The notes: a model not told the origin generated them from the sequence alone. A stretch of DNA of 39,319 nucleotides from an uncultured archaeon (GCA_964651405.1 CAZYZB010000001.1:6888-46206); one strand, 5' to 3'. Numbered from the stretch's first letter, positions 1 to 15,427 are shown. Numbers and translations are program-made.

Positions 1-3000
1 GGTCCTATTCCTCTTCCCGCTAGAGCTATGGCAGCATCTTTGTTATAGACTATTGCAAGGTCTGCAGACTTTTTGATGAATTCCAACTTTTCCTTTTCTT
101 CATCTGTCAGCTCTGCTCCTTTGAGCCACTTCTTAACAATATTCTGAGCTTCCTCCCTATGAGGCTTGAGAACAGCTATTAGCTTTGATTGGCATATCCT
201 GCATCTCAAGTCTTCGATGTCTTTTACAGTTTCTGTGATCGAGTACTTGCCACAGTTAATACAGAGCAGTCTTACTTTTGAATTCAAGAGTCTGTTCTTG
301 AATATCTTAAAAATCTCTTTTTCTGGTCTCTCAGGTCTTGCCACATCCTGCAGCTCATATCTGAATCCCATCTCAGCTAGTGGTGATAGACCTTCTAAGC
401 TTTGAATCTTAATTTCTTTGTCTTGTATCTTCTGTATAATTTCCTTTGCCTTTTCTATATCAAGCTTTTCTATGAATAACTCTTGCATAGTTTCCTTATG
501 TATCGGTGAGTTCCAATAAGCGTCTATCATCCTATCAATGTTTATCGATTCGAAGCTAGCTTTCTTGCTTATTGCCCCAAATCTTTTGGCTACATGAATA
601 AACCTAAGCTTAAACAAAGAAGATCGCGGCAAAGACTTTTCAAGAATAACTTCAATGTCTTCAGGCTTGTAATTAAGTAAAACCTTTTTGACGTCATCGA
701 CGCTACAGCCCTTAATTATTATTCTATAAGGGTCTGTCTTGCTAGTTATTATCTCGCCATAATCTGCAGAAAGTATGGCAGATATGAAACGGGACAATGT
801 TTCATTGACCAAGCTGCCGAACAAGGAATGCAAGACAACATACTCATTGAACTTTTCTATCAAAATGTTCTTTTCATCAGGTAAAGGATATTTCTTTATC
901 TGGTTTTTCAGAATTTGGACCATTTTTACTGCTGTTTGCGAAGAGATCGGATAAGAATTTTTAAGTCTTTCAATAATTTCATTGTTTTTCATATTTTCCA
1001 TAAGCATTTTTTTAATTTCTCTCCTAAGTGCTCCAACTTCTTGAGCAACGTCAAATGGAACAGGTATCAATTCTCCTTCCCAAGCAGGTATTGCAGACTC
1101 GATGTCATCTACTGATTCGACAAAGACTTTATCATTTTCTATTGATAGAATCTTCCAAGGTCTTCCTTTAACAATAAAACTGGATCCTACATCTCCATGA
1201 GAGGCTATGAATTCCTCGTCTAAGGTACCGACAAAGCTGTTCGATGTCGTATCCAATACTTTATAGCTTTTTTGATTAGGAATAACAGATAGATTTTCAA
1301 AATAATACTCAAATGCTCTTCTTCTCCTTTTAATTCCATTGTCTGAAAATATCAATCTTAGTTGATTAGTTAAAAAATTTACAAGAGAGTTAAAATCTTC
1401 TTCTCTTAAACTTTTGAATGGATAAGCCTTTCTTATCAAATCAAATGTTATTTTAGGGTCTATATTATAATCTTCTATTGTCAAGCCGATTAGTTGTTGT
1501 GTTAGAACATCCAAGGAATTTCTATGTATTTTTAACTGCTCTAGTTCTCCTTTCAGCGCCTTTCTAGCAATGACAACAGACTCGAATATATCATCTCCTT
1601 CACTTGAGATTATAAAACTTTTTGAAACCTTGCCTACACCATGACCAGAACGGCCAGACCTTTGCAAGAACTGTGTGACTGTTCTTGGTGATTGATACTG
1701 CAAGACTAGATCAATGCTACCGATATCTATGCCAAGTTGCAAAGATGAAGTGCAGTTATGTACAATAAATCCATTTGCTATAAAATTTGAATTTTTTGTG
1801 TTTAAAACATCATAAACTTTACAAATTTTGCCCTCTTCAATTTTTCCAACATTATCCCAAAAAATATCTGAATTAACAAGTAATTTTAATATTTTGTAGA
1901 TTTTTCCATACTCAACATAAACCTTTATCAAATTTAGAAGCTGTTTTCTGGAAATATTTCTTTCACCAATTTCATATCTATAAGGATTCAATTTGTTTTT
2001 AGTTTGCATAAAATATGTACTTACATTTACCTCATTTCGAAGGTTTTTTAATAAATTACCAATAGATGGTATTACATCTTCATTACAGTATCCTTTACCC
2101 AATACATTCATCTTTAATTTATTTTTCCATATTTTAGATTTTATAATAAAGTTTCTTAGATTTTCACCACCAAGTATAGCAACTGTATAATCATCTTTTT
2201 TATTAGTATGTCTTATTGATGAAATAATATCTAATGTTAACAATAGGAGTTGTATATCCTGAGCCATTTTCTTGCTATAAGTTGTAAATAGTATTGAATA
2301 AGTTCTATCATAAGAATTTTGAAAACAACCGTCACCATCAAAATATCCGTTTAAAAAATCAATTTGATGTTTTTTTGGGAGTTGAAAGATAATTTTTGGT
2401 ATCTCTACAATTCTAGCTTTTCTCCCAACCTTAACCCCTATATTTTTAAGAGTATTACATAACCATGTTGCATGAGTTTGTAAAACCAAACAATTCTGTC
2501 CTTTTAATATTGTGCTATTGATAGCAAATTCATCTTTTAAAATTTTCTTATATTTTATAAGAAGTTCTCTATTTTTATTAAAAAGCCTTAGCATATCTTT
2601 CCTTGTAACAGTTCCATCTGCAAGAAGAAATCCTATCAATCTGCAAAAAGCCGGTGAAATTTTTTTAGGTATTATATGTCTTGTATAATTTCTACTGCCT
2701 ATTAAAACAATTTCATTATAAAGTTCTTCCGAATCAATATTGAGTCTTTTTACAATTTTTTCTAGTCTTTCTATAGATTGATTTGTTTTTTTACCTGCCA
2801 GAAAATGCCTTAATTTATGTAAGCCTATTCCAGTTTCTACTGAAAAATCATCATATTTTTTATATTTTTCTTTTATAGCCCGTTTAATTTTATTAAAAAG
2901 TTTATCAGATATTTGTACATAAAGGTTGTCAGGAAGTATAAAATAGAAACTTTTCTCTTTTGATTCAAATGGATTTTGCCTAATTATTGCAACATTCTGT

Positions 3001-4211
3001 CCAATTTCAAGGTTCTCTGCTTTTATCCATTCTAAATTTCCATTATTAATTGTAAGAAATTGATGTTCCTTTGTGCATTCTAATTCAAATCCATGCTTTG
3101 TAATGATTTTTATAGTTCTTTCTATGCCAGTTTCGATAATTTTTGGTGTTTTATCTAGTTCTAACTTTAAATTGGTATTAAGAGAAGCTACTTTTAGATT
3201 ATCTTCATGAATATCATTAATAGTTTTCCATGAGCCGTCAGCAAGAAGAATATCAGTATCACCTGAAATGCAAATAATGCTTTTTAATTTCTCTTCTTTG
3301 AAATCCTTTTCAGCCTGTATCCTAACATCCTTGCTTAACGAAGAATGGTGAATCTCGTGTTGCAGATTCTTGTCAAACATCCTTAGTCTTGAAGATAGAA
3401 TCTCTGCAGCCTCTCTGGTGTTAGTAAAAACTAGAGTAGAGTGATGCTCTAAAATCAAATCTCGGATTCTTCTTAATCTTGCTACTACAGAGCTCCCGAT
3501 AAATATTTTTTCAGCTATTATTTTATCTTCCTTATTAGGATAAGGACTTTCAACTTTTACCTGAACATCTTTAGGAGAAATGGCATTAACTATCTCATAG
3601 CTCTTATCAGAGAAAATGAATCTTGCAGCAATCTCTGGAGAGCCTACAGTAGCAGATAGTGCTACTATCTGCGGCTCGCCGCAATATCTTTTTAATCTTT
3701 CTAGTGATACTGTTAGCTGGACTCCCCTTTTACTATTCACAATCTCATGGATCTCATCAATGACAATATATTTTATGTTTTTCAGATGCTCTTTAAATCT
3801 CTTTCCTACTAACATAGCACCGATTTGCTCTGGCGTAGAAATTAAAATTTGAGGTGGATGCTCTAATTGCATTTTCCTTTCATATTGAGTTGTGTCACCA
3901 TGTCTTATTGAAATTTCAACATCAAGTTTATTACACCACCAAATCAGTCTATCCATTAGATTTCTGTTCAATGCTTTCATTGGTGTAATATACAAAAGAG
4001 CAATTGGCTTGTGCTCTTTCTCAACTAATTTATTAAACAAACCAAGCATCACAGATTCTGTCTTTCCAGAACCTGTTTCAGCAATTACAAGAACATTCTT
4101 TCCATCAAGAACTTTTGGGATTGCTAATTCTTGGACATAAGTAGGTTTTTCAAATCGAGATACGGCTAGCTCTTTTATTCTATTATCTAATATGTTGAAT
4201 ACATTTGACAT
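1..4211 (-). CDS. lhr: Lhr-type DEAD/DEAH-box (DExH) ATP-dependent helicase, intein-interrupted; the 3' end runs off the window
   Basis: I translated by hand a continuous minus-strand frame from the ATG at 4211-4209 to position 1. It is absent from the ORF track because no stop lies in the window. The N-terminus reads MSNVFNILDNRIKELAVSRFEKPTYVQELAIPKVLDGKNVLVIAETGSGKTE, with motif I (AETGSGKT) at ~4059-4082 and DEIH motif II at ~3744-3758. After the intein come CTSSLQLGIDIG (motif V) and QRSGRSGH (motif VI). A long Lhr/DEAD-associated-like C-terminal region follows, with a CINCG...CRICQ zinc ribbon at ~190-270. Confidence 0.88.
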   Translation of the reverse strand, partial: MSNVFNILDNRIKELAVSRFEKPTYVQELAIPKVLDGKNVLVIAETGSGKTESVMLGLFNKLVEKEHKPIALLYITPMKALNRNLMDRLIWWCNKLDVEISIRHGDTTQYERKMQLEHPPQILISTPEQIGAMLVGKRFKEHLKNIKYIVIDEIHEIVNSKRGVQLTVSLERLKRYCGEPQIVALSATVGSPEIAARFIFSDKSYEIVNAISPKDVQVKVESPYPNKEDKIIAEKIFIGSSVVARLRRIRDLILEHHSTLVFTNTREAAEILSSRLRMFDKNLQHEIHHSSLSKDVRIQAEKDFKEEKLKSIICISGDTDILLADGSWKTINDIHEDNLKVASLNTNLKLELDKTPKIIETGIERTIKIITKHGFELECTKEHQFLTINNGNLEWIKAENLEIGQNVAIIRQNPFESKEKSFYFILPDNLYVQISDKLFNKIKRAIKEKYKKYDDFSVETGIGLHKLRHFLAGKKTNQSIERLEKIVKRLNIDSEELYNEIVLIGSRNYTRHIIPKKISPAFCRLIGFLLADGTVTRKDMLRLFNKNRELLIKYKKILKDEFAINSTILKGQNCLVLQTHATWLCNTLKNIGVKVGRKARIVEIPKIIFQLPKKHQIDFLNGYFDGDGCFQNSYDRTYSILFTTYSKKMAQDIQLLLLTLDIISSIRHTNKKDDYTVAILGGENLRNFIIKSKIWKNKLKMNVLGKGYCNEDVIPSIGNLLKNLRNEVNVSTYFMQTKNKLNPYRYEIGERNISRKQLLNLIKVYVEYGKIYKILKLLVNSDIFWDNVGKIEEGKICKVYDVLNTKNSNFIANGFIVHNCTSSLQLGIDIGSIDLVLQYQSPRTVTQFLQRSGRSGHGVGKVSKSFIISSEGDDIFESVVIARKALKGELEQLKIHRNSLDVLTQQLIGLTIEDYNIDPKITFDLIRKAYPFKSLREEDFNSLVNFLTNQLRLIFSDNGIKRRRRAFEYYFENLSVIPNQKSYKVLDTTSNSFVGTLDEEFIASHGDVGSSFIVKGRPWKILSIENDKVFVESVDDIESAIPAWEGELIPVPFDVAQEVGALRREIKKMLMENMKNNEIIERLKNSYPISSQTAVKMVQILKNQIKKYPLPDEKNILIEKFNEYVVLHSLFGSLVNETLSRFISAILSADYGEIITSKTDPYRIIIKGCSVDDVKKVLLNYKPEDIEVILEKSLPRSSLFKLRFIHVAKRFGAISKKASFESINIDRMIDAYWNSPIHKETMQELFIEKLDIEKAKEIIQKIQDKEIKIQSLEGLSPLAEMGFRYELQDVARPERPEKEIFKIFKNRLLNSKVRLLCINCGKYSITETVKDIEDLRCRICQSKLIAVLKPHREEAQNIVKKWLKGAELTDEEKEKLEFIKKSADLAIVYNKDAAIALAGRGIG
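1755..3272 (-). mobile_element. Full-length 506-aa class-1 intein with a LAGLIDADG homing-endonuclease domain, inserted just before helicase motif V
   Basis: It is in frame with no stops (1518 nt). Block A is CISGDTDILLADGSW, with Cys1 at 3272-3270. Block B TxxH is present (ECTKEHQF). The two LAGLIDADG motifs are LIGFLLADGTV and FLNGYFDGDGCF. The C-terminal blocks read VYDVLNTKNSNFIANGFIVHN, followed by the +1 Cys (1754-1752). Removing the intein joins ...KEEKLKSII to CTSSLQLGIDIG. Confidence 0.88.
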
Positions 4212-4336
4212 TTCTAGCCGCTAATAATAAGCTATTTTTCAAAGTTTTTAAATAAATACAGTGTAAATGAAGCATATATATTTCTGAATCCATTCTTAGA
4301 GTGTTGTTTAAATTTCTAATATTTTATAAATTATTT

Positions 4337-5469: not shown

Positions 5470-6228
5470 TTACTTTAGACTTCTTAGCAATCTAGATAAA
5501 AAGCTCTCTTGGATATATTTTTCTCCTGCTAGGAAAGATGCAAGCTTAAACATTTCTTTGCTTGCAGCTGTATTTGGCTTGTACAAAGCTATTGGCATTT
5601 TTAATGCAAGACTTTTATAAACATTAGTGTCAAATGGAATTGTAGATATTACTGGCAGTTTTGTTAATTCTTCTATTTCATGTTTTGTCATTTCATGTTT
5701 CTTTTTATGGACCATGTTAAGGACTATACCCAATTCTTTTACCCCAAACTCTTTTGCAGCTTCTTGGCATCTTATTACATCCATCACAAATGGAACATAT
5801 GGGTTTGTTATATAAAGAAGCTCGTCACTTGCTTTGATTGTTGCCATAGCTTCTCTGCCTAAGCCAGGACTGCCATCAAGAATTATAACGTCATTCTTAT
5901 TGAAAATATCCTTCAAGCTATTCCTTAACTCAGTTACGTCAATTCCTTCCAAGTCGCTTAGCGATAATGATGCAGGAATTATATTCATCCCGCTGAAGTG
6001 ATGGTGAATGGAATCTTCAATACAGTTTTCTCCTCTTAAAACCTTATTCAGAGTTACAGGGCAGTAGTACATGCCCAAATAAAGGCTTAGATGGGACGTT
6101 GTGACGTTACAGTCCACTAAAGTAACGTTCTTTTTATGGTGCTTTGCAAGAATCGCTCCTAAGTTAAGACTAACAGTAGTCTTACCTACTCCACCTTTGC
6201 CACTAACAACTCCTATTATTCTTACCAA
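5470..6228 (-). CDS. minD: MinD/ParA-family deviant-Walker-A ATPase (paralogue 1) with a C-terminal amphipathic tail
   Basis: The sequence VRIIGVVSGKGGVGKTT carries the KGGxGKT deviant Walker A with the signature Lys, and VIILDGSPG is the Walker B. The start is TTG, preceded by GGTG (plus-strand cacc at 6234-6237) at 5 nt spacing. The C-terminus is ESFLSRLLRSLK. The switch region reads VDCN instead of DxD. Confidence 0.85.
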   Translation of the reverse strand: MVRIIGVVSGKGGVGKTTVSLNLGAILAKHHKKNVTLVDCNVTTSHLSLYLGMYYCPVTLNKVLRGENCIEDSIHHHFSGMNIIPASLSLSDLEGIDVTELRNSLKDIFNKNDVIILDGSPGLGREAMATIKASDELLYITNPYVPFVMDVIRCQEAAKEFGVKELGIVLNMVHKKKHEMTKHEIEELTKLPVISTIPFDTNVYKSLALKMPIALYKPNTAASKEMFKLASFLAGEKYIQESFLSRLLRSLK

Positions 6229-6240
6229 AATAACACCATT

Positions 6241-6507
6241 TTATTTGATTTCTTGGTTGTTTTCCTTATTTTCATTAGGTTTCGACTTTTTAAAAATACT
6301 ACCAAAAAGTCCACTAGCTCCTTTCTTTAGCATAGGCAAATCCTTGCCTGGTGCTTTAACTACCTTATAGCCTCTCGGTATGTTGAAAATTGCTCCAACA
6401 GGATTTTTTGAAAAATAATATAAAGTCGTTTTTCCTCTCCTCTTCATATGAAGCCAAAATTTTTTTCCAGCTCTAGTTTTATAACAATAAGGACTAAGTA
6501 AACCCAT
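6241..6507 (-). CDS. Small basic cytoplasmic protein with a MinD-MTS-like amphipathic motif (GLFGSIFKKSK)
   Basis: The 88-aa ORF starts with ATG, is Lys/Arg-rich and has no hydrophobic segment. It sits directly upstream of, and is tightly spaced with, MinD paralogue 1. Confidence 0.6.
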   Translation of the reverse strand: MGLLSPYCYKTRAGKKFWLHMKRRGKTTLYYFSKNPVGAIFNIPRGYKVVKAPGKDLPMLKKGASGLFGSIFKKSKPNENKENNQEIK

Positions 6508-6530
6508 AATTATATCACTTTTATCTATAA

Positions 6531-6540
6531 GATATAAAAT
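6531..6540 (-). promoter_or_regulatory. Possible internal TATA-like box (ATTTTATATC on the minus strand) upstream of the 88-aa/MinD1 genes
   Basis: It lies ~28 nt upstream of ATG 6507 and overlaps the stop codon of the 420-aa gene. Confidence 0.2.
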
Positions 6541-7802
6541 TATGTTTCTTCACCAACCTCTCTTAAGAGTTTTGGTCTCTTCTCTCTTTTTCTTCTCCTC
6601 AAAACAAATAGGAAAAATACAGCCAAAAGAATTAATGCCACTACTATTATGAACGGAGAAAATGCTGGTGCAACTTGCAGTTTGAGTCTAGCATGTGCCA
6701 ATTGAAACACTACATCTTCAAAATATTTCTTTATTTCATCTAATTTTTCCTTAGCGCCTTCATAATCTTCTGAATCATAATATTCCTTTGCTCTGTTAAG
6801 ACCTTCCTTTGCCTTTTCAAAGCTCCTTTCAGCTATTGTTGTGTTTAAACCTTCTGACTTTGCTTCAGTAATCATCCTATCTAGCTCATTTATAAGATAA
6901 TCATAGTTTAAGATCTTCTGATAAACATCATCTTTAATTGATATCCCATACGATGTTATGTTCAAGTTTATAATTCCATATTCTGCTATCTTGTCGCTTA
7001 ATAATTCAAAATTCAAAGGATATGTGCCTGGAGAAATATCTTGAGGTATAGTTAATGATATCAAGAACACTGTGGAGGCATTAACTTTAAGGTCCGGCAA
7101 TAACTTTGGGTTTATCTCGGTCGATACTAGGTTTGTAGTTGATGTTGTAAGCCTTAGATTATAAAGTGCTATCTCTCCTGTATTTTTCACGTTAATGTTT
7201 ATGAGCAAACTTTGGCCAGGATATAAATTGTAATTTTTCTGATAATCTGTGGTTATTCGAGGTATTCCAGCCTCTACTACTACATATTTCCATTCTGGAG
7301 CTGGTCCTGTATAAGGAGTGACTATTATTATTGGAGGTGGAGGAGAGACTGTATAAGTAACTGAAAAAGCTCCCCAAATTTCAGCAACCTTCGTATCATA
7401 AGGTACTCTAGCTTTTATATAATAAGTTCCGTATAATGGCGGCATGAAAACAGTCTTAAAAAATCTCTTTGCTCCTGGTGCGAGGCTGACAGAAGAATCA
7501 TAGTAATAAGCAATAGGGTCTAGCTTGGTAACATTGTAAAAATATATAGTTTCTTCTATTTTCGCTGTAGTAATTGGAAGAGAACCTATGTTGGTGAACT
7601 CTGCTGTTATATTCTGTAGTTCTGATATGTTAAGATAAGACTTGTATGCAAGGGTCACTCTTCCTAGTAAACCTTCCTTCACGCTTACGTCAGCACCTAC
7701 AGCCAATCCAGTTATGTTTAGAGCAAACCTACTAAAAATAAATACAATCAACAATGAAATGACCAGTAAAAATGTTTTGTTCATATTAATACCTTTAAAC
7801 AT
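6540..7802 (-). CDS. Type-I anchored surface protein: signal peptide, beta-sandwich (CARDB-like) domains, helical juxtamembrane stalk, TM helix and basic tail
   Basis: The N-terminal h-region is MNKTFLLVISLLIVFIF. Beta-rich segments include ININVKNTGEIALYNL. The helical region is AERSFEKAKEGLNRAKEYYDSEDYEGAKEKLDEIKKYFEDV. The TM helix is FSPFIIVVALILLAVFFLFVL, followed by RRRKREKRPK. Confidence 0.75.
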   Translation of the reverse strand: MFKGINMNKTFLLVISLLIVFIFSRFALNITGLAVGADVSVKEGLLGRVTLAYKSYLNISELQNITAEFTNIGSLPITTAKIEETIYFYNVTKLDPIAYYYDSSVSLAPGAKRFFKTVFMPPLYGTYYIKARVPYDTKVAEIWGAFSVTYTVSPPPPIIIVTPYTGPAPEWKYVVVEAGIPRITTDYQKNYNLYPGQSLLININVKNTGEIALYNLRLTTSTTNLVSTEINPKLLPDLKVNASTVFLISLTIPQDISPGTYPLNFELLSDKIAEYGIINLNITSYGISIKDDVYQKILNYDYLINELDRMITEAKSEGLNTTIAERSFEKAKEGLNRAKEYYDSEDYEGAKEKLDEIKKYFEDVVFQLAHARLKLQVAPAFSPFIIVVALILLAVFFLFVLRRRKREKRPKLLREVGEET

Positions 7803-7805
7803 AAT

Positions 7806-8429
7806 TTAGGAATATTTGTAAATTAAAAACGATGCGAGTAAAATAATGATGATAATTATTAAATAAGGATAATTGGAGTCATAATTACTTATTTCAAATA
7901 TGGCTTTTGAAGTTGGTGCGTTTGCTTTCTCTTCTGTTTTTTTGTTATTTTGACTTTCAGTTTCCTTAAAAAATAATGGATTTTCAACTTCAACTGTGAA
8001 TTTAAACAACCTTTCTTGAGATAGGCTTATTCCATTGCTAGGTAAGACAGAATTAGCACTTACTGTTATTTCATACCTTCCTGGGCTTGTAGAATTAGGA
8101 GGCTTAACTATTATGTCAACAGGGGTAGCTTTAATGCTGTCAGCCCTGTATGGCAGTTTTATATATTCCTTACCTGAGTATGAGCTTAAAATAAAATTAT
8201 TAGGCTCTATTATGATTATCCAGTTTTCAGGCATTTCCTTCGCATTTAATTCTAGTCTATAATCATTTTCAGTGTTCCAAAATAACACTCTAAACTTTGC
8301 TGAATCACCAATGCTTACTTTAGCAAAGTCATTTTTAACAACAGCGCCCATGTTTATAGCATACGCCCCTGCTGAAAGCAGTCCTAAAAATATTATCATA
8401 AAAATAAAAAATTTAACCATTTTTAACAC
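7806..8429 (-). CDS. Small anchored surface protein (signal peptide, one beta-sandwich domain, C-terminal TM helix)
   Basis: The signal peptide is MVKFFIFMIIFLGLLSAGAYA and the C-terminal TM helix is YLIIIIIILLASFLIY. The likely true start is ATG 8420, which overlaps the upstream stop by 8 nt (ATGGTTAA). The track start is GTG 8429. Confidence 0.7.
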   Translation of the reverse strand: MLKMVKFFIFMIIFLGLLSAGAYAINMGAVVKNDFAKVSIGDSAKFRVLFWNTENDYRLELNAKEMPENWIIIIEPNNFILSSYSGKEYIKLPYRADSIKATPVDIIVKPPNSTSPGRYEITVSANSVLPSNGISLSQERLFKFTVEVENPLFFKETESQNNKKTEEKANAPTSKAIFEISNYDSNYPYLIIIIIILLASFLIYKYS

Positions 8430-9765
8430 CAGTTATTGTTATTGTCCCATTATAGTAACCAGTATAAACTGCTGGGACGTTTATCCAATACCAAGTTGTA
8501 ACATTCGATTTTTGAGGGGCATTTAGTTTAATAACTTCGTCTGTTGTTTTTAAGCTGAAAGAACTTGAATAGCTGTTGCTTGTGTTACTCCAAGTTACAT
8601 TTCCAGTTCCTATGAAAGAATTTAAGGTTTCATTTACAAGATTAGTCCCTTTTATATACAAGTCCAAGTTACAGCTTCCAGCATTAACAGTTATGTTATA
8701 CTCATTATTTTCATTTCCTGGAGCAGGCTTTTGCTCTGTACTGGGATTCAGCAAACCAAATTTTATTGAAGACCAGGATAAGCTAAAATCTTCTGTACAA
8801 GAAACTATAGAGACTGTTGCATTATCTGTATGATTTCCCTGCAACTCTGGATAGGATGAATTAAATAAAACACCGATTTTCCAATAACTGTTGGTATCGC
8901 CTGTTGCATTGATAGTCCAGTTTAGTTTGCATGTTTGGCCCTTATACATAATTCCACAAGATTTCAAAGCACTAGTTGGAGTCTCTTGAATAAAGAATGG
9001 CTTGTCGCCAAAAGTTGTATTCATATCAGTATCAGGTTCATTAGATGTCAAATTATATCTAGCTGTTCCAAATATTTCTCCGCAAGGGCCGTTTCTGCAT
9101 GTTACTGTTGCATTTATTGGAAAATTATAATTTTGTATCAAGTTTGTAGTTAAAGACGTATTAGGATTTATGATATTAACTTCTAGATAGCCTGCTTCAT
9201 AACCAACATAGTACTGGACATAGTCTTCATTTAAGAGTCCAAGGTCTGCAGTTCCTGTTGAATTTATTCTTATTCTAATTATTCTGTCTGGAGAGTTGTA
9301 GTTCATTGGATTAGAAGTCATGTTACACCACCAATTTGTTGGCGTATTTGCTAAAACATTACCGGAATCACATCCGCTTGAAAACCATTGTGAATTTGCG
9401 AAATCATAAATTTGCATTGAATAGTAATCAGAAACGTTTGTCATGAAATTCATAGTAACGTTAATAAACAAAATGCTTCCATCCGCTATTTGCGAAGAAT
9501 TGTGCCAAACTTCTGCTCTATATGAGCCGTCCAATGCTTCAAGAATATCATAAGTTAAACCTTCTCCCAAAGCATTCAAGTCATTATAATCACCAGATGG
9601 ATCCCCACCAAAGGCAACATAAGGTTGACCAGACTGATTATATTGAATTACAGGGTCCAGCACGTAATAAGAATCAGAAGCTAAAACATGTTTTAATGAA
9701 AAGAAGATAATAAAAAACATTATAAAAGCTACTACTATTGACTTGTTAACTCTAATTTTAGTCAC
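8413..9765 (-). CDS. Secreted, sequon-rich, Cys-containing beta-rich protein with no C-terminal anchor
   Basis: It has a GTG start. The n- and h-regions read MTKIRVNKSIVVAFIMFFIIFFSLKHVLA, followed by SDS. It carries many N-x-S/T sites and ends GYYNGTITITGVKNG with no hydrophobic tail. Confidence 0.7.
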   Translation of the reverse strand: MTKIRVNKSIVVAFIMFFIIFFSLKHVLASDSYYVLDPVIQYNQSGQPYVAFGGDPSGDYNDLNALGEGLTYDILEALDGSYRAEVWHNSSQIADGSILFINVTMNFMTNVSDYYSMQIYDFANSQWFSSGCDSGNVLANTPTNWWCNMTSNPMNYNSPDRIIRIRINSTGTADLGLLNEDYVQYYVGYEAGYLEVNIINPNTSLTTNLIQNYNFPINATVTCRNGPCGEIFGTARYNLTSNEPDTDMNTTFGDKPFFIQETPTSALKSCGIMYKGQTCKLNWTINATGDTNSYWKIGVLFNSSYPELQGNHTDNATVSIVSCTEDFSLSWSSIKFGLLNPSTEQKPAPGNENNEYNITVNAGSCNLDLYIKGTNLVNETLNSFIGTGNVTWSNTSNSYSSSFSLKTTDEVIKLNAPQKSNVTTWYWINVPAVYTGYYNGTITITGVKNG

Positions 9766-9769
9766 TTGA

Positions 9770-10543
9770 TCACTTTCTAAGCTTTCCTACAAATCTTCGA
9801 AAGAAATTAGGCTTCCTATAATCAACACCTGCAATTTTTGATGCAATTTCAAAAAATGCTATGCTGGACGGAGAGTTTTGCTTAGAAATTGTCACAAGAG
9901 TTTTTTTGTTTGCACTTTCCATTATTTTTTCATCTTCAGGTATTATACCTATTATTGGAAGCTCAGTAAACTGTTTTATTTCATCAAGTTTAATTTCATA
10001 GGGCTTTTTTCTAACCCTATTTAATATTATTCCAAGTGGCAGAGGTCTATTTTCTAATGTATTGATTAACTGATGGCATTTAACTACGTCTACAAGAGAT
10101 GGAACATGCGGATTTGCAACAAACAAAGCTTCATCACTAGCTTGCAAGGCTATTAAACTTTCACGTCCTAGACTAGGTGCAGAATCGAGAAGGACGATGT
10201 CATAGTTAGCGAAGGCAAGTTTTAATTTTTCCTTAAAATTATTCACATCAATATTAACAATGTCTCTAAAATCTAGAGACGCTGGCACGATTTTTAAACC
10301 AGAATGATGAGTATAAACAGCGTCTTCTAACCTAGACTCATTCTTCAAAAAGCTGTTTAGTGTTACAGGATAAGAGTACAAACCAAAAAGTAGGCCTAAA
10401 TGAGAAGTAGTGAGATTGCAGTCTACAACTACAACTTTCTTATAAAACTTCTGTAGGGCTATGCCTAAATTAGATGCTACAGTTGTCTTTCCGACACCGC
10501 CTTTGCCTGAGCAAACATCAATTATTCTTACCATGTTTATCAT
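9770..10543 (-). CDS. minD: MinD/ParA-family deviant-Walker-A ATPase (paralogue 2) with a C-terminal amphipathic tail
   Basis: The sequence MINMVRIIDVCSGKGGVGKTT carries the deviant Walker A, and IVLLDSAPS is the Walker B. By eye it is roughly 45 percent identical to paralogue 1. The C-terminus is KPNFFRRFVGKLRK. The switch region is again VDCN. Its start overlaps the upstream gene by 26 nt (17 nt if ATG 10534 is used). Confidence 0.85.
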   Translation of the reverse strand: MINMVRIIDVCSGKGGVGKTTVASNLGIALQKFYKKVVVVDCNLTTSHLGLLFGLYSYPVTLNSFLKNESRLEDAVYTHHSGLKIVPASLDFRDIVNIDVNNFKEKLKLAFANYDIVLLDSAPSLGRESLIALQASDEALFVANPHVPSLVDVVKCHQLINTLENRPLPLGIILNRVRKKPYEIKLDEIKQFTELPIIGIIPEDEKIMESANKKTLVTISKQNSPSSIAFFEIASKIAGVDYRKPNFFRRFVGKLRK

Positions 10544-12914
10544 GAAGATTTTTTATCGCATTTGGGAATTCTGAAGAAATCAATTTTTTATAGTCATTTT
10601 CATTTCTAAAGTTTGTTGGAACTACAACTTTCCTCTTTCTAAGATCGTCCTTAACATCAAAGAGGAAGTCCTTTATATCATCTCTTTTAGTTTTTCTAAT
10701 CTTTACTTTTTTAAGGATTATTGCCACAGAAAAACAAATTATAGCAAAAATTATTAAAGTCATATTGGAATCTAATTTTGGTAAAATGAATCTTCCGGAC
10801 GGTGTAGGAGTGTTTTCAGCTATAGTTTCATTTTTGTCAACCACAGTAAGTCCAAATATTTTCTCTTGTCTTATTTCATCATTATAAACTGCTAGACTAA
10901 CGCTATAAGTTTGCTTTCCAGCATCTTCTGGAATTGAGAAGTAAATATAAACCTTATCTTCTTCATTTTCTCCTATCCTTTCTATATAGTTAGTCATGCT
11001 GTAGAAGTTGCTCGATATGCCGCTCAAGGATATGTTCAAGCCTAGCAAACTTGCTTGACCGGTGTTTACTATTGAAATTTCCTGAGTAAAGTTTTGACCT
11101 TGCTTTAATTTAATCGTATCTGGGGCAATAACTTCAATGTTCCTACTTTTAAGAACATTGAAGTTCTTACTGTCGCTAAAACTTATGTAAGGAGATTTTT
11201 CTGAACTTAAAACTAAAGTATAATTATCTTCACTTTCTGGAGCTTTAAAGTCAAATGAAAAAACTCCATTATTGTCAGACGTTGTCTCCATCTTAATTCC
11301 AGAATTCTTAATATACGCCTTAACAGTGGCATTTACAACAGCGTCTCCATCATCATCTTTTAACACTCCCCTTACTTTTACAGGACTTTTTATGTAATAG
11401 TTTTGACTGTCTAGGTTGTAATTAGCTTTTATTGCCTTTCTTTCTCCAACTATAAAGGCTGAAAGACTGCTTAAGTTTACTTCAGCTAGATTCCTCACTA
11501 TATCGATATCACTTCCAATCTCAACCCACTTGTCACTGCAAGTTTTTCTTCCAGAATTCCAATTAGAACATCTAAAAACAACTATACTCTCTTCATTAAG
11601 CAAGTTTTTCTCTTCATATTCCATTTCTATGTCAACCTGATTGTAAGTCAAGGCTACTTCATAACTGAATAAACCGGCACTTCTTATTCCTGGTACAAGC
11701 GATTCGTCTGAATAAAAATATTTTATAGGGTCATTGAAATTATTTACCAAAGCTCCTTCCAAATAAAGTGTTGATTGAGGGAATGCTATTTGGACATCAT
11801 ATGTGTTTGGTGGCAAATATCCAGAATAGTGACCAATACTGTCTGTAGAGAGCTTTAATTTTTCTATCCCATTTGAAAAGAACTTTATCTGCGTGCTGAT
11901 ACCTTTATTGTCATTGTCAGTTATCTTACCTCCTACATAAACAATGTAATCTATTGACTTTGTGGTTGAATATGAGCTGCTCCCGTAACTTAAAATGGCT
12001 TTTATATCATAAGTTCCTGCACCAAATGCAGGAGTAGTTATCTTAACATTGTAAAGGTCCCCACCTCTATCTATACTTAATATGTTTAAGTTTGTGGAAG
12101 ATATCTGAACATTTAGATTATTTCTATTAACATCTATAATGTTTGTCCCTTCTTTGGCTCTTAAGGTAATTGTTATGTTTTCATTACCTTCAACCCAGCT
12201 TTTACTTAAACTAACAATATCAAAATCAATCTTCTTTTTAACTTCAATGTTATCGCTATCTGTTACTTTGGCTCTATCATAAAATGCATTAACTTTTAGG
12301 CTGTAAGTTCCTTCTGTAGAGGGTGGGTCTAACTTTAATATCCAACCTCTTCCATTCGCATAAGTATTATCTACTGTAAAATCTTTGAACTGGTCATTCA
12401 AGGTGACGTTAAATTCTACACCACTAGATATTTTTACACCATCTTTCATTACAATAAAATCTATTTCCATTAAGTTGCCAATATAGGCAGGCTTTGGATC
12501 GATGATATTTATGTAGCCTGTAAGTTCTGAAACCTTAAAAATCGCATAAGCAGTAGTTATGGTACTTTCATTGTTTTCACAAAATATATCTAAGTTATAC
12601 TGTCCAGTTCTATCAAGATAGATGTTGTCAATTAACAAATTGCAAGCACTGCTCGTGCAGCTAAAGTTCCAAGGTCCGTTTGGAGTAAGATTTACAGGTC
12701 CTGTGATGTTTGTATAAACTCTATTTATTGTTTTAGCTTCATCATCATAGCAGTTTAATGCTATTACAGCATCATCTATAGTGACGTTCTCGCCTTCTCT
12801 TAACCAGAGTGTTGCAGACGGCGAAATGTTTATATTTTCAATCACAGGCATTGCTGAAACTAATCTAATCATAAATAAAAACAAAATTAATGATAAAAAT
12901 ATAATTTTATTCAT
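10518..12914 (-). CDS. Large type-I anchored surface protein with Ig-like and carboxypeptidase-regulatory-like beta-sandwich domains, a TM helix and a ~65-aa cytoplasmic tail
   Basis: The signal peptide is MNKIIFLSLILFLFMIRLVSA. CarboxypepD_reg-like segments include VRGVLKDDDGDAVVNATVKAYIKNSGIKMETTSDNNGVFSF. The TM helix is MTLIIFAIICFSVAIIL, followed by a basic tail. An ATGA overlap couples it to the upstream wHTH gene. Confidence 0.75.
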   Translation of the reverse strand: MNKIIFLSLILFLFMIRLVSAMPVIENINISPSATLWLREGENVTIDDAVIALNCYDDEAKTINRVYTNITGPVNLTPNGPWNFSCTSSACNLLIDNIYLDRTGQYNLDIFCENNESTITTAYAIFKVSELTGYINIIDPKPAYIGNLMEIDFIVMKDGVKISSGVEFNVTLNDQFKDFTVDNTYANGRGWILKLDPPSTEGTYSLKVNAFYDRAKVTDSDNIEVKKKIDFDIVSLSKSWVEGNENITITLRAKEGTNIIDVNRNNLNVQISSTNLNILSIDRGGDLYNVKITTPAFGAGTYDIKAILSYGSSSYSTTKSIDYIVYVGGKITDNDNKGISTQIKFFSNGIEKLKLSTDSIGHYSGYLPPNTYDVQIAFPQSTLYLEGALVNNFNDPIKYFYSDESLVPGIRSAGLFSYEVALTYNQVDIEMEYEEKNLLNEESIVVFRCSNWNSGRKTCSDKWVEIGSDIDIVRNLAEVNLSSLSAFIVGERKAIKANYNLDSQNYYIKSPVKVRGVLKDDDGDAVVNATVKAYIKNSGIKMETTSDNNGVFSFDFKAPESEDNYTLVLSSEKSPYISFSDSKNFNVLKSRNIEVIAPDTIKLKQGQNFTQEISIVNTGQASLLGLNISLSGISSNFYSMTNYIERIGENEEDKVYIYFSIPEDAGKQTYSVSLAVYNDEIRQEKIFGLTVVDKNETIAENTPTPSGRFILPKLDSNMTLIIFAIICFSVAIILKKVKIRKTKRDDIKDFLFDVKDDLRKRKVVVPTNFRNENDYKKLISSEFPNAIKNLHDKHGKNN

Positions 12915-13126
12915 TTTTTTGACCTCGATATTGTATAAACATTCGACTTTCCAACTTTGTGGAATTCTAACTTCCCTTGATTCTTTAGAGCTTCTAGATA
13001 ACCAGTGATTATGTCTCTTCTTACTCCTAATTCTTTAGCAATCTGAGAAACTGATAATAGCTTAGAACTTAAAAGATCTATAATCTTCTTTTCAAAATCA
13101 TTAGCGGTTATAGATTCTTCTGACAT
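12911..13126 (-). CDS. Small winged-helix-turn-helix DNA-binding protein, a putative locus regulator
   Basis: The 71-aa protein has an HTH (LSVSQIAKELGVRRDIITGYLEALKNQGKL) followed by a wing (EFHKVGKSNVYTI). It is preceded by the only sizeable intergenic gap in the operon (13127-13207), which contains a TATA-like box. Confidence 0.7.
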   Translation of the reverse strand: MSEESITANDFEKKIIDLLSSKLLSVSQIAKELGVRRDIITGYLEALKNQGKLEFHKVGKSNVYTISRSKK

Positions 13127-13207: not shown

Positions 13208-13951
13208 CTAAAGAAGAAGCTTTAAACTGTCTAGAATACTATGAAATATTCTTATTATACCTTGTTCTTTTTTCATTTCTAAAGTCTTTTCAGAATAATA
13301 TTTTCCGTTTTCAGCAACAACTGCTAGTTTTAAATCTTTAGGCTCAAAAAAAGTAGGATAATAGTTAATTGATACAGTCTTTACAGAACCTTTTCTCATA
13401 TAATCTATTGCTTTTTGTTCGAATATCCATCCAAGAACATATTTAGAAGGAATTACTATGATATTTTTTGCGTCGTTTTTGCTCTTTAGATCAAATATAA
13501 TGTGGTCATCATAGGTCCTAAAGTTCATAATTTCAAAGTTGTCTTCAGGAACTAAAGCTTCATTTATTTGAAATTCCTTTTTTTCATTCTCGATAATCTC
13601 GTTTCCAGCGTAAATTCTTAGTTTTGAATCATACTTTACCGGAGAGCTTGCATACCAATAAACATCAAAAATTTTCCTATCTCCTGGCATAAGAGTTTTT
13701 TCTTGGCTCCAACCATTAAAAAGTAGTTTATCACTTTTATATATGGAAATTCTTGCTCTTGCATTATATGCTATGCTTCCCACGTTAGAGAACTCTGTGG
13801 AGAACTTGACAACATTTGAAGAGATATTGACTCCCTCATGAACTACTTCACCTTTAATATCTTCATTTATGTCAACTTCTATCATGGATGAGAAAACAAT
13901 TTTAGCTAAGATTAGAATAAATAAAACAGCTATTAAAATTATTTTTTTCAA
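13208..13951 (-). CDS. Secreted beta-sandwich protein with a signal peptide and no C-terminal anchor
   Basis: It has a TTG start. The signal peptide is (M)KKIILIAVLFILILAKIVFS. The body is beta-rich, including FSTEFSNVGSIAYNARARISIY. Confidence 0.65.
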   Translation of the reverse strand: MKKIILIAVLFILILAKIVFSSMIEVDINEDIKGEVVHEGVNISSNVVKFSTEFSNVGSIAYNARARISIYKSDKLLFNGWSQEKTLMPGDRKIFDVYWYASSPVKYDSKLRIYAGNEIIENEKKEFQINEALVPEDNFEIMNFRTYDDHIIFDLKSKNDAKNIIVIPSKYVLGWIFEQKAIDYMRKGSVKTVSINYYPTFFEPKDLKLAVVAENGKYYSEKTLEMKKEQGIIRIFHSILDSLKLLL

Positions 13952-13955
13952 TAAA

Positions 13956-14471
13956 TCACGTTAATGCCTTTAAAAAATCATATTTTGGCCTTTTAATGAC
14001 AACATCTATTTCTCCTGTGTAATTTCCAACTTTTGCAGATTCTGTGTACAAGCCAACTTCAACTACAGTGCTTTCATTCTCATCTAAAACAAAATTATTT
14101 TTGCTAAAATTTACTAGTGGGGTTATGTTTCCATAAGTCTTTAAACTTATTTTATTGTAGCCTTCATTAAGATTTTTTATGTTTATATATCTTTTTATAT
14201 AACTTCCATTCCCAGGGGCAACGCCAAATCTTAGGTTCCAGGGGTCTGTGACAAATCCTATATCAAAATTCTCTTCTTGAGAAGGAACAATGCTTACGTC
14301 TGTTGGATATCTTATTACTTTATAATTAAAAAAAGCGTTAGAGTAGTTTAAAATAACTCTGTTGCTTACAAAGTCTTTTGGTGCAGGAGGTTCAATTGTT
14401 ACGACAAATAAAAAAGTAATAAGTATAGCTGCAATTATAATTACAATAACTTCTTTCTTCAATGAACCCAC
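13956..14471 (-). CDS. N-terminally anchored single-domain beta-sandwich protein
   Basis: The N-terminal TM helix is VIVIIIAAILITFLFVV, followed by a ~140-aa beta-rich domain. The track start is GTG 14471. TTG 14462, with GGTGG 5 nt upstream and a TTGA overlap with the preceding stop, is an attractive alternative. Confidence 0.65.
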   Translation of the reverse strand: MGSLKKEVIVIIIAAILITFLFVVTIEPPAPKDFVSNRVILNYSNAFFNYKVIRYPTDVSIVPSQEENFDIGFVTDPWNLRFGVAPGNGSYIKRYINIKNLNEGYNKISLKTYGNITPLVNFSKNNFVLDENESTVVEVGLYTESAKVGNYTGEIDVVIKRPKYDFLKALT

Positions 14472-15427
14472 CTATAGATTATAATTGCAAGTATTATGAT
14501 GAAAACTATAAATATCCATGTTGGAAATTCTTCTGCTTCAGGCCTAGCCATTAAAGCTGCCGCAGTTATAGGTACTGTCGAGTTTTTATATGCAGTACCT
14601 GTTGTATAACTTACAAATGTAAATACATTATAGTCCCCTAAAGAGAGGTCTTTAGCAGGTAAAAAGCTTTTAAGAGTTTTTACTTCCTTAGGTTTTAAGA
14701 TTTCTCTAGGTGATTGAATCTCAGTTATAAAGTTGCCATCATTATCATAGACTTTTTGGGTCGCTGTGGCTGTTATTGTTGTTGTCCCTTTGTTTTGAAA
14801 GTAAGTGTCTATAGCTAGATCGTCATTCCTGTATCCTCCTGGTAATGTGTCCAAAATTATCCCATCTCTTATAGCATCTCCAGGAACTTTGAAGAGAATG
14901 CTAACAGAAATCATTGCAATAATTCTAGTTCCAATCCTTCCTTCTCCGGCAGGAGTTGCTGACGGGTTAGGGTTTACTTTAATCAGGTGGTATCCAGGTT
15001 CAGCGTCTTTAGGAACTTCTAACAAGAAGTTTACTTCTTTCCACCCTTTTATAGCTTCATAGTTTGTTTTTATAGTTTCATTCTGAGGTCTAATTTCTAC
15101 TGGGTTGCTCAAAAGTTTTATCCATTTAATAGAACTTTCTTCAGAATAATTAAAAATGAAATTACCATAATGGTTGTTGAAGAAATCTATTGTGCCTTCT
15201 TCAGGTTCCAGATAAATCAGTAAAGGATCTTCTGATACAGTTACTACGTAAAACTTAACAAGATTGGTCGTACCTCTTTCTAACTCCCCTAAATTTACTA
15301 TTGATGGTGAGACGCCAACAAAAAATCTGTCATCTGCAAGAGAATTATAGGCAAAAAATGTAAAAAATAGCATAAATGCAAGCATAAAAGCATAAAATTT
15401 CATAAAAATTATTGAACAGTTAAACAT
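14459..15427 (-). CDS. Type-I anchored surface protein (signal peptide, two beta-sandwich domains, C-terminal TM helix); first gene of the 13-gene operon
   Basis: The signal peptide is MKFYAFMLAFMLFFTFFAYNSLA (alternative ATG 15403). The C-terminal TM helix is WIFIVFIIILAIIIY. A divergent promoter region lies upstream. Confidence 0.7.
   Translation of the reverse strand: MFNCSIIFMKFYAFMLAFMLFFTFFAYNSLADDRFFVGVSPSIVNLGELERGTTNLVKFYVVTVSEDPLLIYLEPEEGTIDFFNNHYGNFIFNYSEESSIKWIKLLSNPVEIRPQNETIKTNYEAIKGWKEVNFLLEVPKDAEPGYHLIKVNPNPSATPAGEGRIGTRIIAMISVSILFKVPGDAIRDGIILDTLPGGYRNDDLAIDTYFQNKGTTTITATATQKVYDNDGNFITEIQSPREILKPKEVKTLKSFLPAKDLSLGDYNVFTFVSYTTGTAYKNSTVPITAAALMARPEAEEFPTWIFIVFIIILAIIIYRWVH

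What the first reader, a model, noticed from the sequence alone, without database searches (positions are those of the whole stretch)
5470..10543. Two paralogous MinD/ParA ATPases both carry Asn at the catalytic Asp position and keep MTS-like tails
Both proteins retain the deviant Walker A with the signature lysine (SGKGGVGKTT). In the switch region, E. coli MinD reads V-I-D38-F-D40-I-G-L-R-N-L and archaeal MinDs read D-x-D. Here both read V-D-C-N (N codon at 6106-6108 in paralogue 1 and at 10415-10417 in paralogue 2). In MinD and Soj, mutating this Asp (MinD D40A, Soj D44A) yields ATP-bound dimers that hydrolyse poorly. A shared D-to-N change in two diverged paralogues therefore suggests selected slow-hydrolysis or scaffold-like behaviour. 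Both end in amphipathic basic tails (ESFLSRLLRSLK and KPNFFRRFVGKLRK) that resemble the MinD membrane-targeting sequence. Each gene follows a type-I anchored surface protein with a basic cytoplasmic tail. The 798-aa gene overlaps MinD2 by 26 nt, and the 420-aa gene precedes the 88-aa gene and MinD1. This hints at a duplicated anchor-plus-ParA cassette, analogous in logic to TadZ/CpaE or FlhG positioning of envelope machines.
Basis: partly seen in the sequence, partly recalled or inferred. Interest (0 to 1): 0.68.

Follow-up and report, generated by a model that had tools for sequence, protein, structure and literature searches.

The report
DPANN MinD ATPases lacking catalytic aspartate
Two membrane-binding MinD-type ATPases of a tiny symbiotic-type archaeon carry asparagine where MinD normally has its catalytic aspartate, but this is the inherited norm for nearly all DPANN archaeal MinDs sampled rather than a special feature of these two genes, which sit in a conserved gene cluster for anchored cell-surface proteins.

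Summary
Both ORFs (5470-6228 and 9770-10543, minus strand) are archaeal MinD family members. They keep the deviant Walker A and have Asn exactly in the E. coli MinD D40 column. Both end in cationic amphipathic helices.

The interpretation needs correcting. The D-to-N change is not a shared event in two paralogues. It is ancestral and near-universal in the DPANN MinD radiation: 481 of 501 distinct relatives carry N. This includes a second DPANN-wide group found in housekeeping contexts, once right after ftsZ. Solved euryarchaeal and bacterial MinDs have D.

Specific to the window's subfamily (Aenigmatarchaeota) are three things:
- a coupled change of two more active-site-neighbouring residues (N45 to H, E146 to aromatic or His);
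- the motif DCN-x-TTSH;
- recurrent linkage of three paralogue clades to genes for large, C-terminally anchored NEW3/CARDB surface proteins.

MinD1 always follows a conserved, very basic 88-aa protein. MinD2 overlaps the 798-aa anchor gene.

Most likely these are ATP-dependent, slowly or conditionally hydrolysing membrane-bound organisers of the surface-protein complex. That function is inferred, not shown. I rate it a new variant of a known kind, of moderate interest.

The parts
5470..6228 (-). MinD1: 252-aa archaeal MinD-family ATPase of the N40/H45/Y146 type
   Evidence: TIGR01969 score 208.3 against a cut-off of 201.75. AF2 pLDDT 92.8; best Foldseek matches 1hyq, 1g3q and 1ion. Orthologues are 57-94% identical.
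6106..6108 (-). AAC codon for Asn41 of MinD1, in the E. coli MinD D40 column
5473..5505 (-). C-terminal amphipathic cationic helix of MinD1 (SFLSRLLRSLK), MTS-like
   Evidence: muH 0.78, reached by 1.4% of shuffles. Predicted helix 243-251. 91% of close homologues have a comparable tail.
6241..6507 (-). 88-aa protein with net charge +16, no TM segment and no Pfam hit. It lies immediately upstream of MinD1 in the relatives that have it. Candidate adaptor or partner.
   Evidence: 36 orthologous ORFs were found; in the loci inspected each lies directly upstream of a MinD1-clade gene. Conserved motif MGLFGPF..Y..K.G.KFWLH..GK..YYFSKDP..LP.GYEVVENP.TG.PFLRKK..GF. The AF2 model has low confidence.
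6540..7802 (-). 420-aa type-I anchored surface protein with a CARDB/NEW3-like Ig domain, a helical stalk, a TM segment and a 20-aa cytoplasmic tail
   Evidence: Pfam CARDB and NPCBM_assoc hits. TM segments at 10-28 and 382-400. The tail motif RPKLLR..EET is conserved in 30 orthologues.
7806..8429 (-). 207-aa secreted protein with a C-terminal TM anchor
8413..9765 (-). 450-aa secreted or N-terminally anchored protein, rich in glycosylation sequons (22 N-X-S/T)
9770..10543 (-). MinD2: 257-aa archaeal MinD-family ATPase of the N40/H45/H146 type
   Evidence: TIGR01969 score 214.7 against 201.75. 44% identical to MinD1. It forms its own clade, whose 10 locus-derived members each follow a 798-aa-type gene.
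10415..10417 (-). AAT codon for Asn43 of MinD2, in the E. coli MinD D40 column
9773..9805 (-). C-terminal amphipathic cationic helix of MinD2 (FFRRFVGKLRK)
   Evidence: muH 0.80, net charge +5
10518..12914 (-). 798-aa type-I anchored surface protein with a CarboxypepD_reg domain, a membrane-proximal Ig-like domain, a TM segment at 716-734 and a 64-aa cytoplasmic tail. It overlaps MinD2 by 26 nt.
   Evidence: The orthologue in L005 overlaps its MinD2 by 17 nt.
12911..13126 (-). 71-aa winged-HTH protein. In some relatives this domain is fused to a D-x-D-type MinD.
   Evidence: Pfam HTH_5 and others. Fusion proteins of 315-328 aa occur in L024, L037-L039 and L085.
13208..15427 (-). Three secreted or anchored proteins (322, 171 and 247 aa) that travel with the cluster
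   Evidence: Synteny in L005, L007, L024, L037-L039 and L085
4725..5462 (-). Two small membrane proteins downstream of MinD1: a 147-aa protein with 2 TM segments and a coiled coil, and an 85-aa protein with 2 TM segments
   Evidence: The 147-aa protein is conserved in about 12 loci. A small TM protein commonly follows N-type MinDs (34 of 66 cases).

Best explanation
Shown: both genes are genuine members of the archaeal MinD family. They belong to a DPANN-wide lineage in which the second Asp of the Walker A'/switch-I D-x-D motif (the MinD D40 catalytic residue) is constitutively Asn. The signature Lys, the P-loop Lys, the first Asp, the Walker B Asp and the switch-II Asp remain nearly invariant.

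Shown: the window's subfamily, typical of Aenigmatarchaeota, has in addition replaced N45 by His and E146 by an aromatic residue or His. It is encoded in a tightly packed, syntenic 13-gene cluster in which nine products are secreted or membrane-anchored.

Inferred mechanism:
1. The proteins bind ATP and form sandwich dimers.
2. They attach to the membrane through their C-terminal amphipathic helices.
3. Lacking the general-base Asp, they hydrolyse ATP slowly, or only when a partner acts.
4. They therefore behave as long-lived membrane-bound platforms rather than fast oscillators.
5. These platforms organise, cluster or position the neighbouring anchored surface proteins. Contact is probably through the conserved cytoplasmic tail of the 420-aa protein, the tail of the 798-aa protein, and the very basic 88-aa protein that precedes MinD1 in every locus where it was found.
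For: Family membership and column assignment.

Asn is under purifying selection and is not a compositional artefact. 481 of 501 distinct relatives have N. Both Asn codons are used (AAC 54, AAT 35) across loci of 24-58% GC, and the neighbouring Asp residues are retained.

K11, K16, D38, D120 and D152 are nearly invariant, so nucleotide binding and dimerisation are maintained.

Tail amphipathicity is conserved: 91% of close homologues and 67% of representatives, against 27% of internal control windows.

Synteny:
- g450-g207-g420-g88-MinD1 occurs in about 36 loci, and HTH-g798-MinD2 in about 10.
- A third 'solo' clade lies next to orthologues of the window's 1967-aa NEW3 surface protein in 29 of 42 loci.
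- In a Nanoarchaeota contig, NEW3 proteins, an N-type MinD and a 13,605-aa protein are adjacent.
- Gene overlaps and gaps of 3-36 nt suggest co-translation.

The 420-aa tail motif RPKLLR..EET is conserved.

Effect of losing this Asp:
- B. subtilis MinD D40A has negligible ATPase activity, forms a trapped dimer, binds membrane about 10-fold more tightly and forms static clusters (PMC13246001).
- Get3 D57N binds ATP without hydrolysis (PMC12506534).
- ATP-dimer crystal structures of E. coli MinD (D40A), H. pylori Soj (D41A) and McdA (D38A) all use this mutation.
Against: No biochemistry exists for any N-type MinD. Asn can still hydrogen-bond a water molecule, and another residue or a partner may supply the base.

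The signature lysine is strictly conserved, which is also what a working ATPase would show.

The same Asn occurs in housekeeping DPANN MinDs that are not linked to surface-protein genes. The Asn therefore cannot be an adaptation to this cluster.

Only about half of the N-type MinD loci have a large C-terminally anchored protein within three genes upstream (45 of 89).

Physical interaction with the tails or with the 88-aa protein is untested. The 798-aa tail is not more conserved than the rest of that protein.
Confidence: 0.45

Rival explanations
1. These are ordinary cycling ATPases. In the DPANN lineage Asn, together with conserved Thr/Ser residues in N-x-T-T-S/P and E146 or H45, positions the attacking water well enough. 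Alternatively, a partner peptide completes the site. The proteins would then work as normal dynamic MinD/ParA-type positioning ATPases, and D-x-N would be a lineage signature with little kinetic meaning.
For: N is universal even in housekeeping DPANN MinDs, one of them adjacent to ftsZ. All other catalytic-site residues, including the signature Lys, are conserved. The coupled change at columns 45 and 146 (H with aromatic in 214 sequences, N with acidic in 166) looks like a remodelled but maintained active-site shell.
Against: In every tested relative, loss of this Asp abolishes or strongly reduces hydrolysis. This includes the exact D-to-N change in Get3. The window proteins have also lost E146, so no obvious alternative acidic base remains.
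Confidence: 0.3
2. The ATPases act in cell division or chromosome/nucleoid organisation, as MinD or ParA do. Their position inside the surface-protein cluster would then reflect co-regulation or genomic hitch-hiking rather than a functional link.
For: They are annotated as 'cell division ATPase MinD' by family models. A related DPANN MinD follows ftsZ. A wHTH DNA-binding domain is fused to a D-type MinD in the same cluster in some relatives.
Against: Three separate paralogue clades each keep their own surface-protein neighbours across dozens of species, with overlapping or nearly abutting genes. Archaeal divisome positioning has been assigned to the unrelated Dip/Arco GTPase system, and haloarchaeal MinDs do not act in division. 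No ParB-like or MinC/MinE-like gene lies nearby.
Confidence: 0.15
3. The proteins are degenerate or decaying paralogues, or the Asn is an artefact of AT-rich composition.
For: The window has about 33% GC, and GAY to AAY is a single G-to-A transition.
Against: N is retained in 26 loci with more than 45% GC. Both synonymous codons are used. The neighbouring Asp residues are intact. The family shows strong conservation, and the AF2 model has pLDDT 92.8.
Confidence: 0.02

Closest known systems
Euryarchaeal MinD (A. fulgidus MinD-1 1hyq; P. furiosus 1g3q; P. horikoshii 1ion); NCBIfam TIGR01969
   Same: Same family. The scores are above the curated cut-off, with 30-38% identity and TM-scores of 0.83-0.95. 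The deviant Walker A, Walker B and switch II are shared, as is the single-domain size.
   Different: The solved proteins read D-x-D...N...E. The window proteins read D-C-N...H...Y/H. The window proteins also carry a clearly amphipathic, cationic C-terminal helix and sit in a surface-protein cluster.
Engineered hydrolysis-deficient mutants: E. coli and B. subtilis MinD D40A, T. thermophilus Soj D44A, H. pylori Soj D41A, McdA D38A, Get3 D57N
   Same: The same residue is lost; in Get3 the substitution is the same (D to N). These mutants bind ATP, form locked dimers and bind membrane or partners more tightly. The Soj D44A behaviour and the equivalence of Get3 D57 to MinD D40 are taken from my own knowledge of the literature.
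   Different: Those are laboratory mutants of proteins that need hydrolysis to function. Here the state is natural, ancient and under purifying selection, with co-evolved neighbouring residues.
Haloferax volcanii MinD4 (and MinD2)
   Same: These are archaeal MinDs with a C-terminal MTS. They position envelope machines (the archaellum and chemosensory arrays), not the divisome.
   Different: The state of their D40-column residue was not examined here. They are not linked to surface-protein operons. That study reported MinD homologues only in Euryarchaeota.
TadZ/CpaE and FlhG/FleN (ParA/MinD-type organisers of envelope machines)
   Same: The logic is analogous: a MinD-like ATPase encoded with, and localising, an envelope apparatus. 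FlhG also has an MTS.
   Different: There is no N-terminal receiver-like domain and no pilus or flagellar genes. The NCBIfam score for the CpaE-like model is 31-35 bits against a cut-off of 154. The window proteins are not members of these families.

Membership tests
Archaeal MinD (NCBIfam TIGR01969 minD_arch) | Profile score above the curated cut-off over the full length | tested here: met
   Scores of 208.3 and 214.7 bits against a cut-off of 201.75
Archaeal MinD (NCBIfam TIGR01969 minD_arch) | Deviant Walker A xKGGxGK[ST] with signature Lys (K11) and P-loop Lys (K16) | tested here: met
   SGKGGVGKTT is present in both proteins. Both columns are K.
Archaeal MinD (NCBIfam TIGR01969 minD_arch) | Walker A'/switch-I D-x-D with the second (catalytic) Asp | tested here: not met
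   The first Asp is present; the second is Asn in both proteins. This is a departure in a conserved motif, not in the curated family definition.
Archaeal MinD (NCBIfam TIGR01969 minD_arch) | Walker B Asp (D120) and switch-II Asp (D152) | tested here: met
   Both residues are present. They are invariant or nearly invariant in relatives.
Archaeal MinD (NCBIfam TIGR01969 minD_arch) | MinD/SIMIBI fold | tested here: met
   AF2 pLDDT 92.8. The top Foldseek hits are 1hyq, 1g3q and 1ion, with probability 1.00.
MinD sensu stricto (membrane-binding) | C-terminal amphipathic membrane-targeting helix that binds lipid | tested here: inconclusive
   Sequence and model predict a cationic amphipathic terminal helix. 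Lipid binding itself cannot be tested with these tools.
Bacterial MinCDE system | MinC and/or MinE partner genes; score above the TIGR01968 cut-off | tested here: not met
   Scores of 85 and 120 bits against a cut-off of 212.9. No MinC or MinE domains were found in the ORFs scanned (23 of the window's ORFs, plus the last 800 aa of the giant ORF).
ParA/Soj partition ATPase | Score above the family cut-off; adjacent ParB-like or centromere-binding partner | tested here: not met
   NF041546 scores 53-58 bits against a cut-off of 180. No ParB-like gene is present.
TadZ/CpaE | N-terminal receiver-like domain plus ParA-like domain, encoded in a Tad/Flp pilus locus with a TadA/CpaF ATPase | tested here: not met
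   The proteins are single-domain, 252 and 257 aa. TIGR03815 scores 31-35 bits against a cut-off of 154. The cluster has no T2SSE ATPase or pilin genes.
FlhG/FleN | Linkage to flagellar or archaellar genes and their regulators | tested here: not met
   No such genes occur in the window or in syntenic loci.

The most novel reading that the evidence does not exclude
N-type MinDs may be a DPANN invention: naturally 'D40N-locked', ATP-bound membrane scaffolds. The Aenigmatarchaeota paralogues would then, together with the 88-aa basic adaptor, gather giant glycosylated adhesin-like surface proteins into a localised patch via their cytoplasmic tails. Such a patch could be the host-attachment site of these episymbionts. 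This would be a static counterpart of the dynamic Min and ParA systems.
Probability: 0.2. Interest if true: 0.8.

Novelty: new variant of a known kind. Interest (0 to 1): 0.52.

Why it matters
The role of MinD homologues in archaea is open. Divisome placement has just been assigned to the unrelated Dip/Arco GTPase oscillator. The only archaeal MinDs whose cellular role has been studied position motility machinery, and that study found MinD only in Euryarchaeota.

This window shows that DPANN archaea have a large MinD radiation in which the residue that experimenters mutate to freeze MinD, ParA or Get3 in the ATP state is already Asn in nature. If these proteins are slow or partner-gated, they are a natural experiment on how a Turing-type oscillator ATPase turns into a static scaffold.

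The conserved linkage to anchored giant surface proteins gives a concrete hypothesis about how ultra-small symbiotic archaea organise their cell surface. It can be tested in the DPANN-host co-cultures that exist.

If the proteins hydrolyse ATP normally, they show instead that the 'catalytic' Asp is dispensable in this fold. That would matter for how D-to-A and D-to-N mutants are interpreted.

Tried and rejected
- A genome scan with a broad 25-sequence alignment of N-type MinDs failed because no stretch was conserved enough. It worked only with the narrow DCN-TTSH subfamily, so the scan gives the taxonomy of that subfamily only.
- A homology search with the 88-aa protein returned only 7 close hits. 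Its AF2 model was too poor (pLDDT 56) for a fold search, so its fold remains unknown.
- The second cluster-member look-up gave almost no organism names.
- The exact 257-aa MinD2 product is not on record, probably because a different start codon was called.
- Literature searches for MinD in DPANN or Aenigmarchaeota found no description of the D-x-N state.
- I considered compositional bias as the cause of D-to-N and rejected it.
- I considered TadZ/CpaE, FlhG, ParA and BcsQ membership and rejected each.
- I considered a true tandem duplication of an 'anchor plus ParA' cassette. It is only weakly supported.
- The NJ tree is a rough distance tree. I use it only for clade membership, not to count D/N transitions.

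Full report
**What is in the sequence**

The window has about 33% GC. Named relatives identify it as Aenigmatarchaeota, a DPANN lineage. On the minus strand, thirteen genes run from 15427 down to 4725. They overlap by 4-26 nt or are separated by gaps of 3-36 nt. The one exception is an 81-nt gap before the HTH gene.

The gene order is: 322-aa, 171-aa, 247-aa, wHTH (71 aa), 798-aa, MinD2, 450-aa, 207-aa, 420-aa, 88-aa, MinD1, 147-aa, 85-aa. Nine products have signal-peptide-like N-termini and/or TM segments. The 798-aa and 420-aa proteins are type-I anchored, with cytoplasmic tails of 64 and 20 residues. The four cytoplasmic products are the wHTH, the two MinDs, and the 88-aa protein, which has a net charge of +16.

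**Check of the observation**

- Family: both ATPases pass the curated cut-off of NCBIfam TIGR01969, archaeal MinD (208 and 215 bits against 201.75). They fall far below the cut-offs for bacterial MinD, ParA, BcsQ and CpaE-like models.
- Paralogy: they are 44% identical to each other.
- Column assignment: HMMER aligns V-D-C-N-V-T-T-S-H-L with V-D-A-D-I-T-M-A-N-L (1hyq), V-D-G-D-L-T-M-A-N-L (1g3q) and I-D-A-D-I-G-L-R-N-L (4v03) without gaps in this stretch.
- Numbering: a MAFFT alignment with E. coli MinD puts the Asn in column D40. The E. coli sequence I used is identical to PDB 3q9l except for the engineered D40A.
- Codons: the Asn codons are AAC at 6106-6108 and AAT at 10415-10417.
- Fold: an AlphaFold2 model of MinD1 is confident (pLDDT 92.8). 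Its best structural matches are the three archaeal MinD structures.
- Tail: the last nine or so residues form a separate helix after a linker. The terminal 11-mers are strongly amphipathic and cationic.

**How common is D-x-N?**

- All 120 best 90%-identity clusters found with MinD1 read [VI]-D-C-N-x-T-[TS]-S-H.
- I took the 150 nearest representatives from a library of 1.84 billion 50%-identity clusters. Among the 143 full-length ones, column 40 is N in 130, D in 11, C in 1 and S in 1. K11, K16, D38 and D120 are invariant or nearly so.
- A second search started from a representative that keeps N45 and E146 and sits close to A. fulgidus MinD in a rough tree. It gave 120 further clusters, all with N at column 40.
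- Named members of this second group come from Aenigmatarchaeota, Undinarchaeota, Nanoarchaeota, Nanohaloarchaea and 'DPANN group'.
- Sampled contigs of the second group show housekeeping surroundings. In one Nanoarchaeota MAG the gene directly follows ftsZ.
- Pooled, 481 of 501 distinct sequences have N and 18 have D.
- The Asn is encoded by both AAC (54) and AAT (35) in loci ranging from 24 to 58% GC. It is therefore selected, not a by-product of AT richness.

The D-to-N change is thus ancestral to a very large, apparently DPANN-wide MinD radiation, and both window paralogues inherited it. Whether those MinDs hydrolyse ATP normally is unknown.

**What is specific to the window's subfamily**

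Across the pooled set, columns 45 and 146 covary. His at 45 goes with an aromatic residue or His at 146 in 214 sequences. Asn at 45 goes with Glu or Asp at 146 in 166 sequences.

The window proteims are N/H/Y (MinD1) and N/H/H (MinD2). Besides D40, they have therefore lost the other acidic residue of that neighbourhood. In a distance tree, the N/H/non-acidic sequences form one superclade. It contains a MinD1 clade, a MinD2 clade and a third 'solo' clade.

A scan of GTDB species genomes with the motif [VI]DCN[VLI][TS]TSH gave 252 confirmed loci. The best 80 are essentially all Aenigmatarchaeota.

**Gene neighbourhood**

- The block 450-207-420-88-MinD1 recurs in about 36 loci whose MinD1 is 50-73% identical. 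The HTH-798-MinD2 unit recurs in about 10.
- Every one of the 36 homologues of the 88-aa protein that I inspected lies directly upstream of a MinD1-clade gene. The family has a sharply conserved N-terminus (MGLFGPF) and a G-F-rich, Lys-flanked C-terminal segment.
- The 'solo' clade has its own conserved neighbours. In 29 of 42 loci these include an orthologue of the window's 1967-aa NEW3/MG2 surface protein (37% identity over the full length), typically two genes upstream (24 loci). A small TM protein commonly lies just downstream.
- In a Nanoarchaeota contig, an N-type MinD overlaps a NEW3-domain protein gene and precedes a 13,605-aa ORF.
- The 420-aa protein's short tail carries a conserved RPKLLR..EET motif. 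It is among the four best-conserved windows of that protein. The 798-aa tail has recognisable motifs but is not more conserved than the rest of the protein.
- The 798-aa and 420-aa proteins share only a membrane-proximal Ig-like domain. 'Duplicated cassette' therefore overstates the case.
- In some relatives the wHTH is fused to a D-x-D-type MinD inside the same cluster. D-type and N-type paralogues thus coexist, which argues that the two states are functionally distinct. The window retains only the wHTH.

**Mechanism**

It is established that removing this Asp blocks hydrolysis while preserving ATP binding and dimerisation.

- B. subtilis MinD D40A has negligible ATPase activity. It behaves as a trapped dimer, binds membrane about ten-fold more tightly, and forms static membrane clusters (PMC13246001).
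- Get3 D57N, the same chemical change, binds ATP without hydrolysing it (PMC12506534).
- ATP-dimer structures of E. coli MinD, H. pylori Soj and McdA use the same mutation.

From this I infer that N-type MinDs are long-lived ATP-bound dimers on the membrane, or are gated by a partner. In this cluster they would serve as cytoplasmic organisers of the anchored surface proteins, with the 88-aa protein and the conserved tails as the likely contacts.

This is inference. No N-type MinD has been assayed, and the strict conservation of the signature lysine fits a working ATPase equally well. Because housekeeping DPANN MinDs share the Asn, it cannot be an adaptation to this cluster.

**Comparison and novelty**

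By the curated family model the proteins are archaeal MinDs that depart from the D-x-D motif. They are not members of the MinCDE, ParA, TadZ/CpaE or FlhG families. The analogy with TadZ or FlhG is one of logic only.

I found no paper describing the D-x-N state or MinD in DPANN. The main survey of archaeal MinDs reported them only in Euryarchaeota. Recent work assigns archaeal divisome positioning to an unrelated GTPase oscillator, which leaves the function of archaeal MinD open.

**Verdict**

It is a lineage-wide natural 'catalytic-Asp-less' MinD variant, with an Aenigmatarchaeota subfamily tied to surface-protein clusters.
- Novelty: new variant of a known kind.
- Interest: 0.52.

Noticed in passing
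window 26411-39319 (-), runs off the right end: A giant ORF of more than 4300 aa. It has sequon-rich extracellular repeats, a Gly/Ala linker, a TM segment and a cytoplasmic C-terminal HerA/DUF87 P-loop ATPase domain (PF01935, E 6.8e-11). This is a surface giant fused to an FtsK/HerA-type ATPase.
   Followed up: partly
window 17291-23194 (-): A 1967-aa NEW3 (x2) plus MG2 surface protein with a C-terminal TM segment and a coiled-coil tail. In 29 of 42 other Aenigmatarchaeota loci, its orthologues lie upstream of a third ('solo') N-type MinD, typically two genes upstream (24 loci). That MinD is absent from this window.
   Followed up: partly
window 12911-13126 (-); L024, L037-L039, L085: The 71-aa wHTH gene corresponds to the N-terminal domain of 315-328-aa wHTH-MinD fusion proteins in relatives. 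Those fusions keep the canonical D-x-D. The ATPase part is missing in this lineage.
   Followed up: partly
window 3-4220 (-), runs off the left end: An Lhr-type DEAD/DEAH helicase interrupted by an intein with a LAGLIDADG homing-endonuclease domain.
   Followed up: no
MinD columns 45 and 146 (E. coli numbering); window MinD1 H46/Y147, MinD2 H48/H149: These two positions covary strongly across 501 relatives. His with aromatic/His occurs in 214 sequences, and Asn with Glu/Asp in 166. This suggests the two residues are in contact and were remodelled together.
   Followed up: partly
L008 8800-16759 (Nanoarchaeota contig, ERZ650341 NODE_4): A called gene of 13,605 aa lies immediately downstream of an N-type MinD (IDCNISTSH). 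Upstream of that MinD is a run of NEW3-domain proteins.
   Followed up: no
L091 4813-6789 (Nanoarchaeota, GCA_018221045.1): ftsZ is followed after 114 nt by an N-type MinD (N40/N45/E146 group). This may link that group to cell division.
   Followed up: no
window 15472-16356 and 16391-17290 (+): Two tandem paralogous secreted proteins (294 and 299 aa) with no Pfam match. They are divergently oriented to the cluster.
   Followed up: no
window 24496-26409 (-) and 23775-24499 (+): A 637-aa K/E-rich coiled-coil protein and two small coiled-coil proteins, one with a weak CdvA-like hit (E 0.0085). K/E-rich coiled-coil proteins also follow the 'solo' MinD in other genomes.
   Followed up: no
L022/L023 (JAWCME01) and L025/L035 (JAWBTN01): Two separate copies of the 88-aa-plus-MinD1 module occur in the same MAG. 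The module may be duplicated within genomes, or the bins may mix strains.
   Followed up: no
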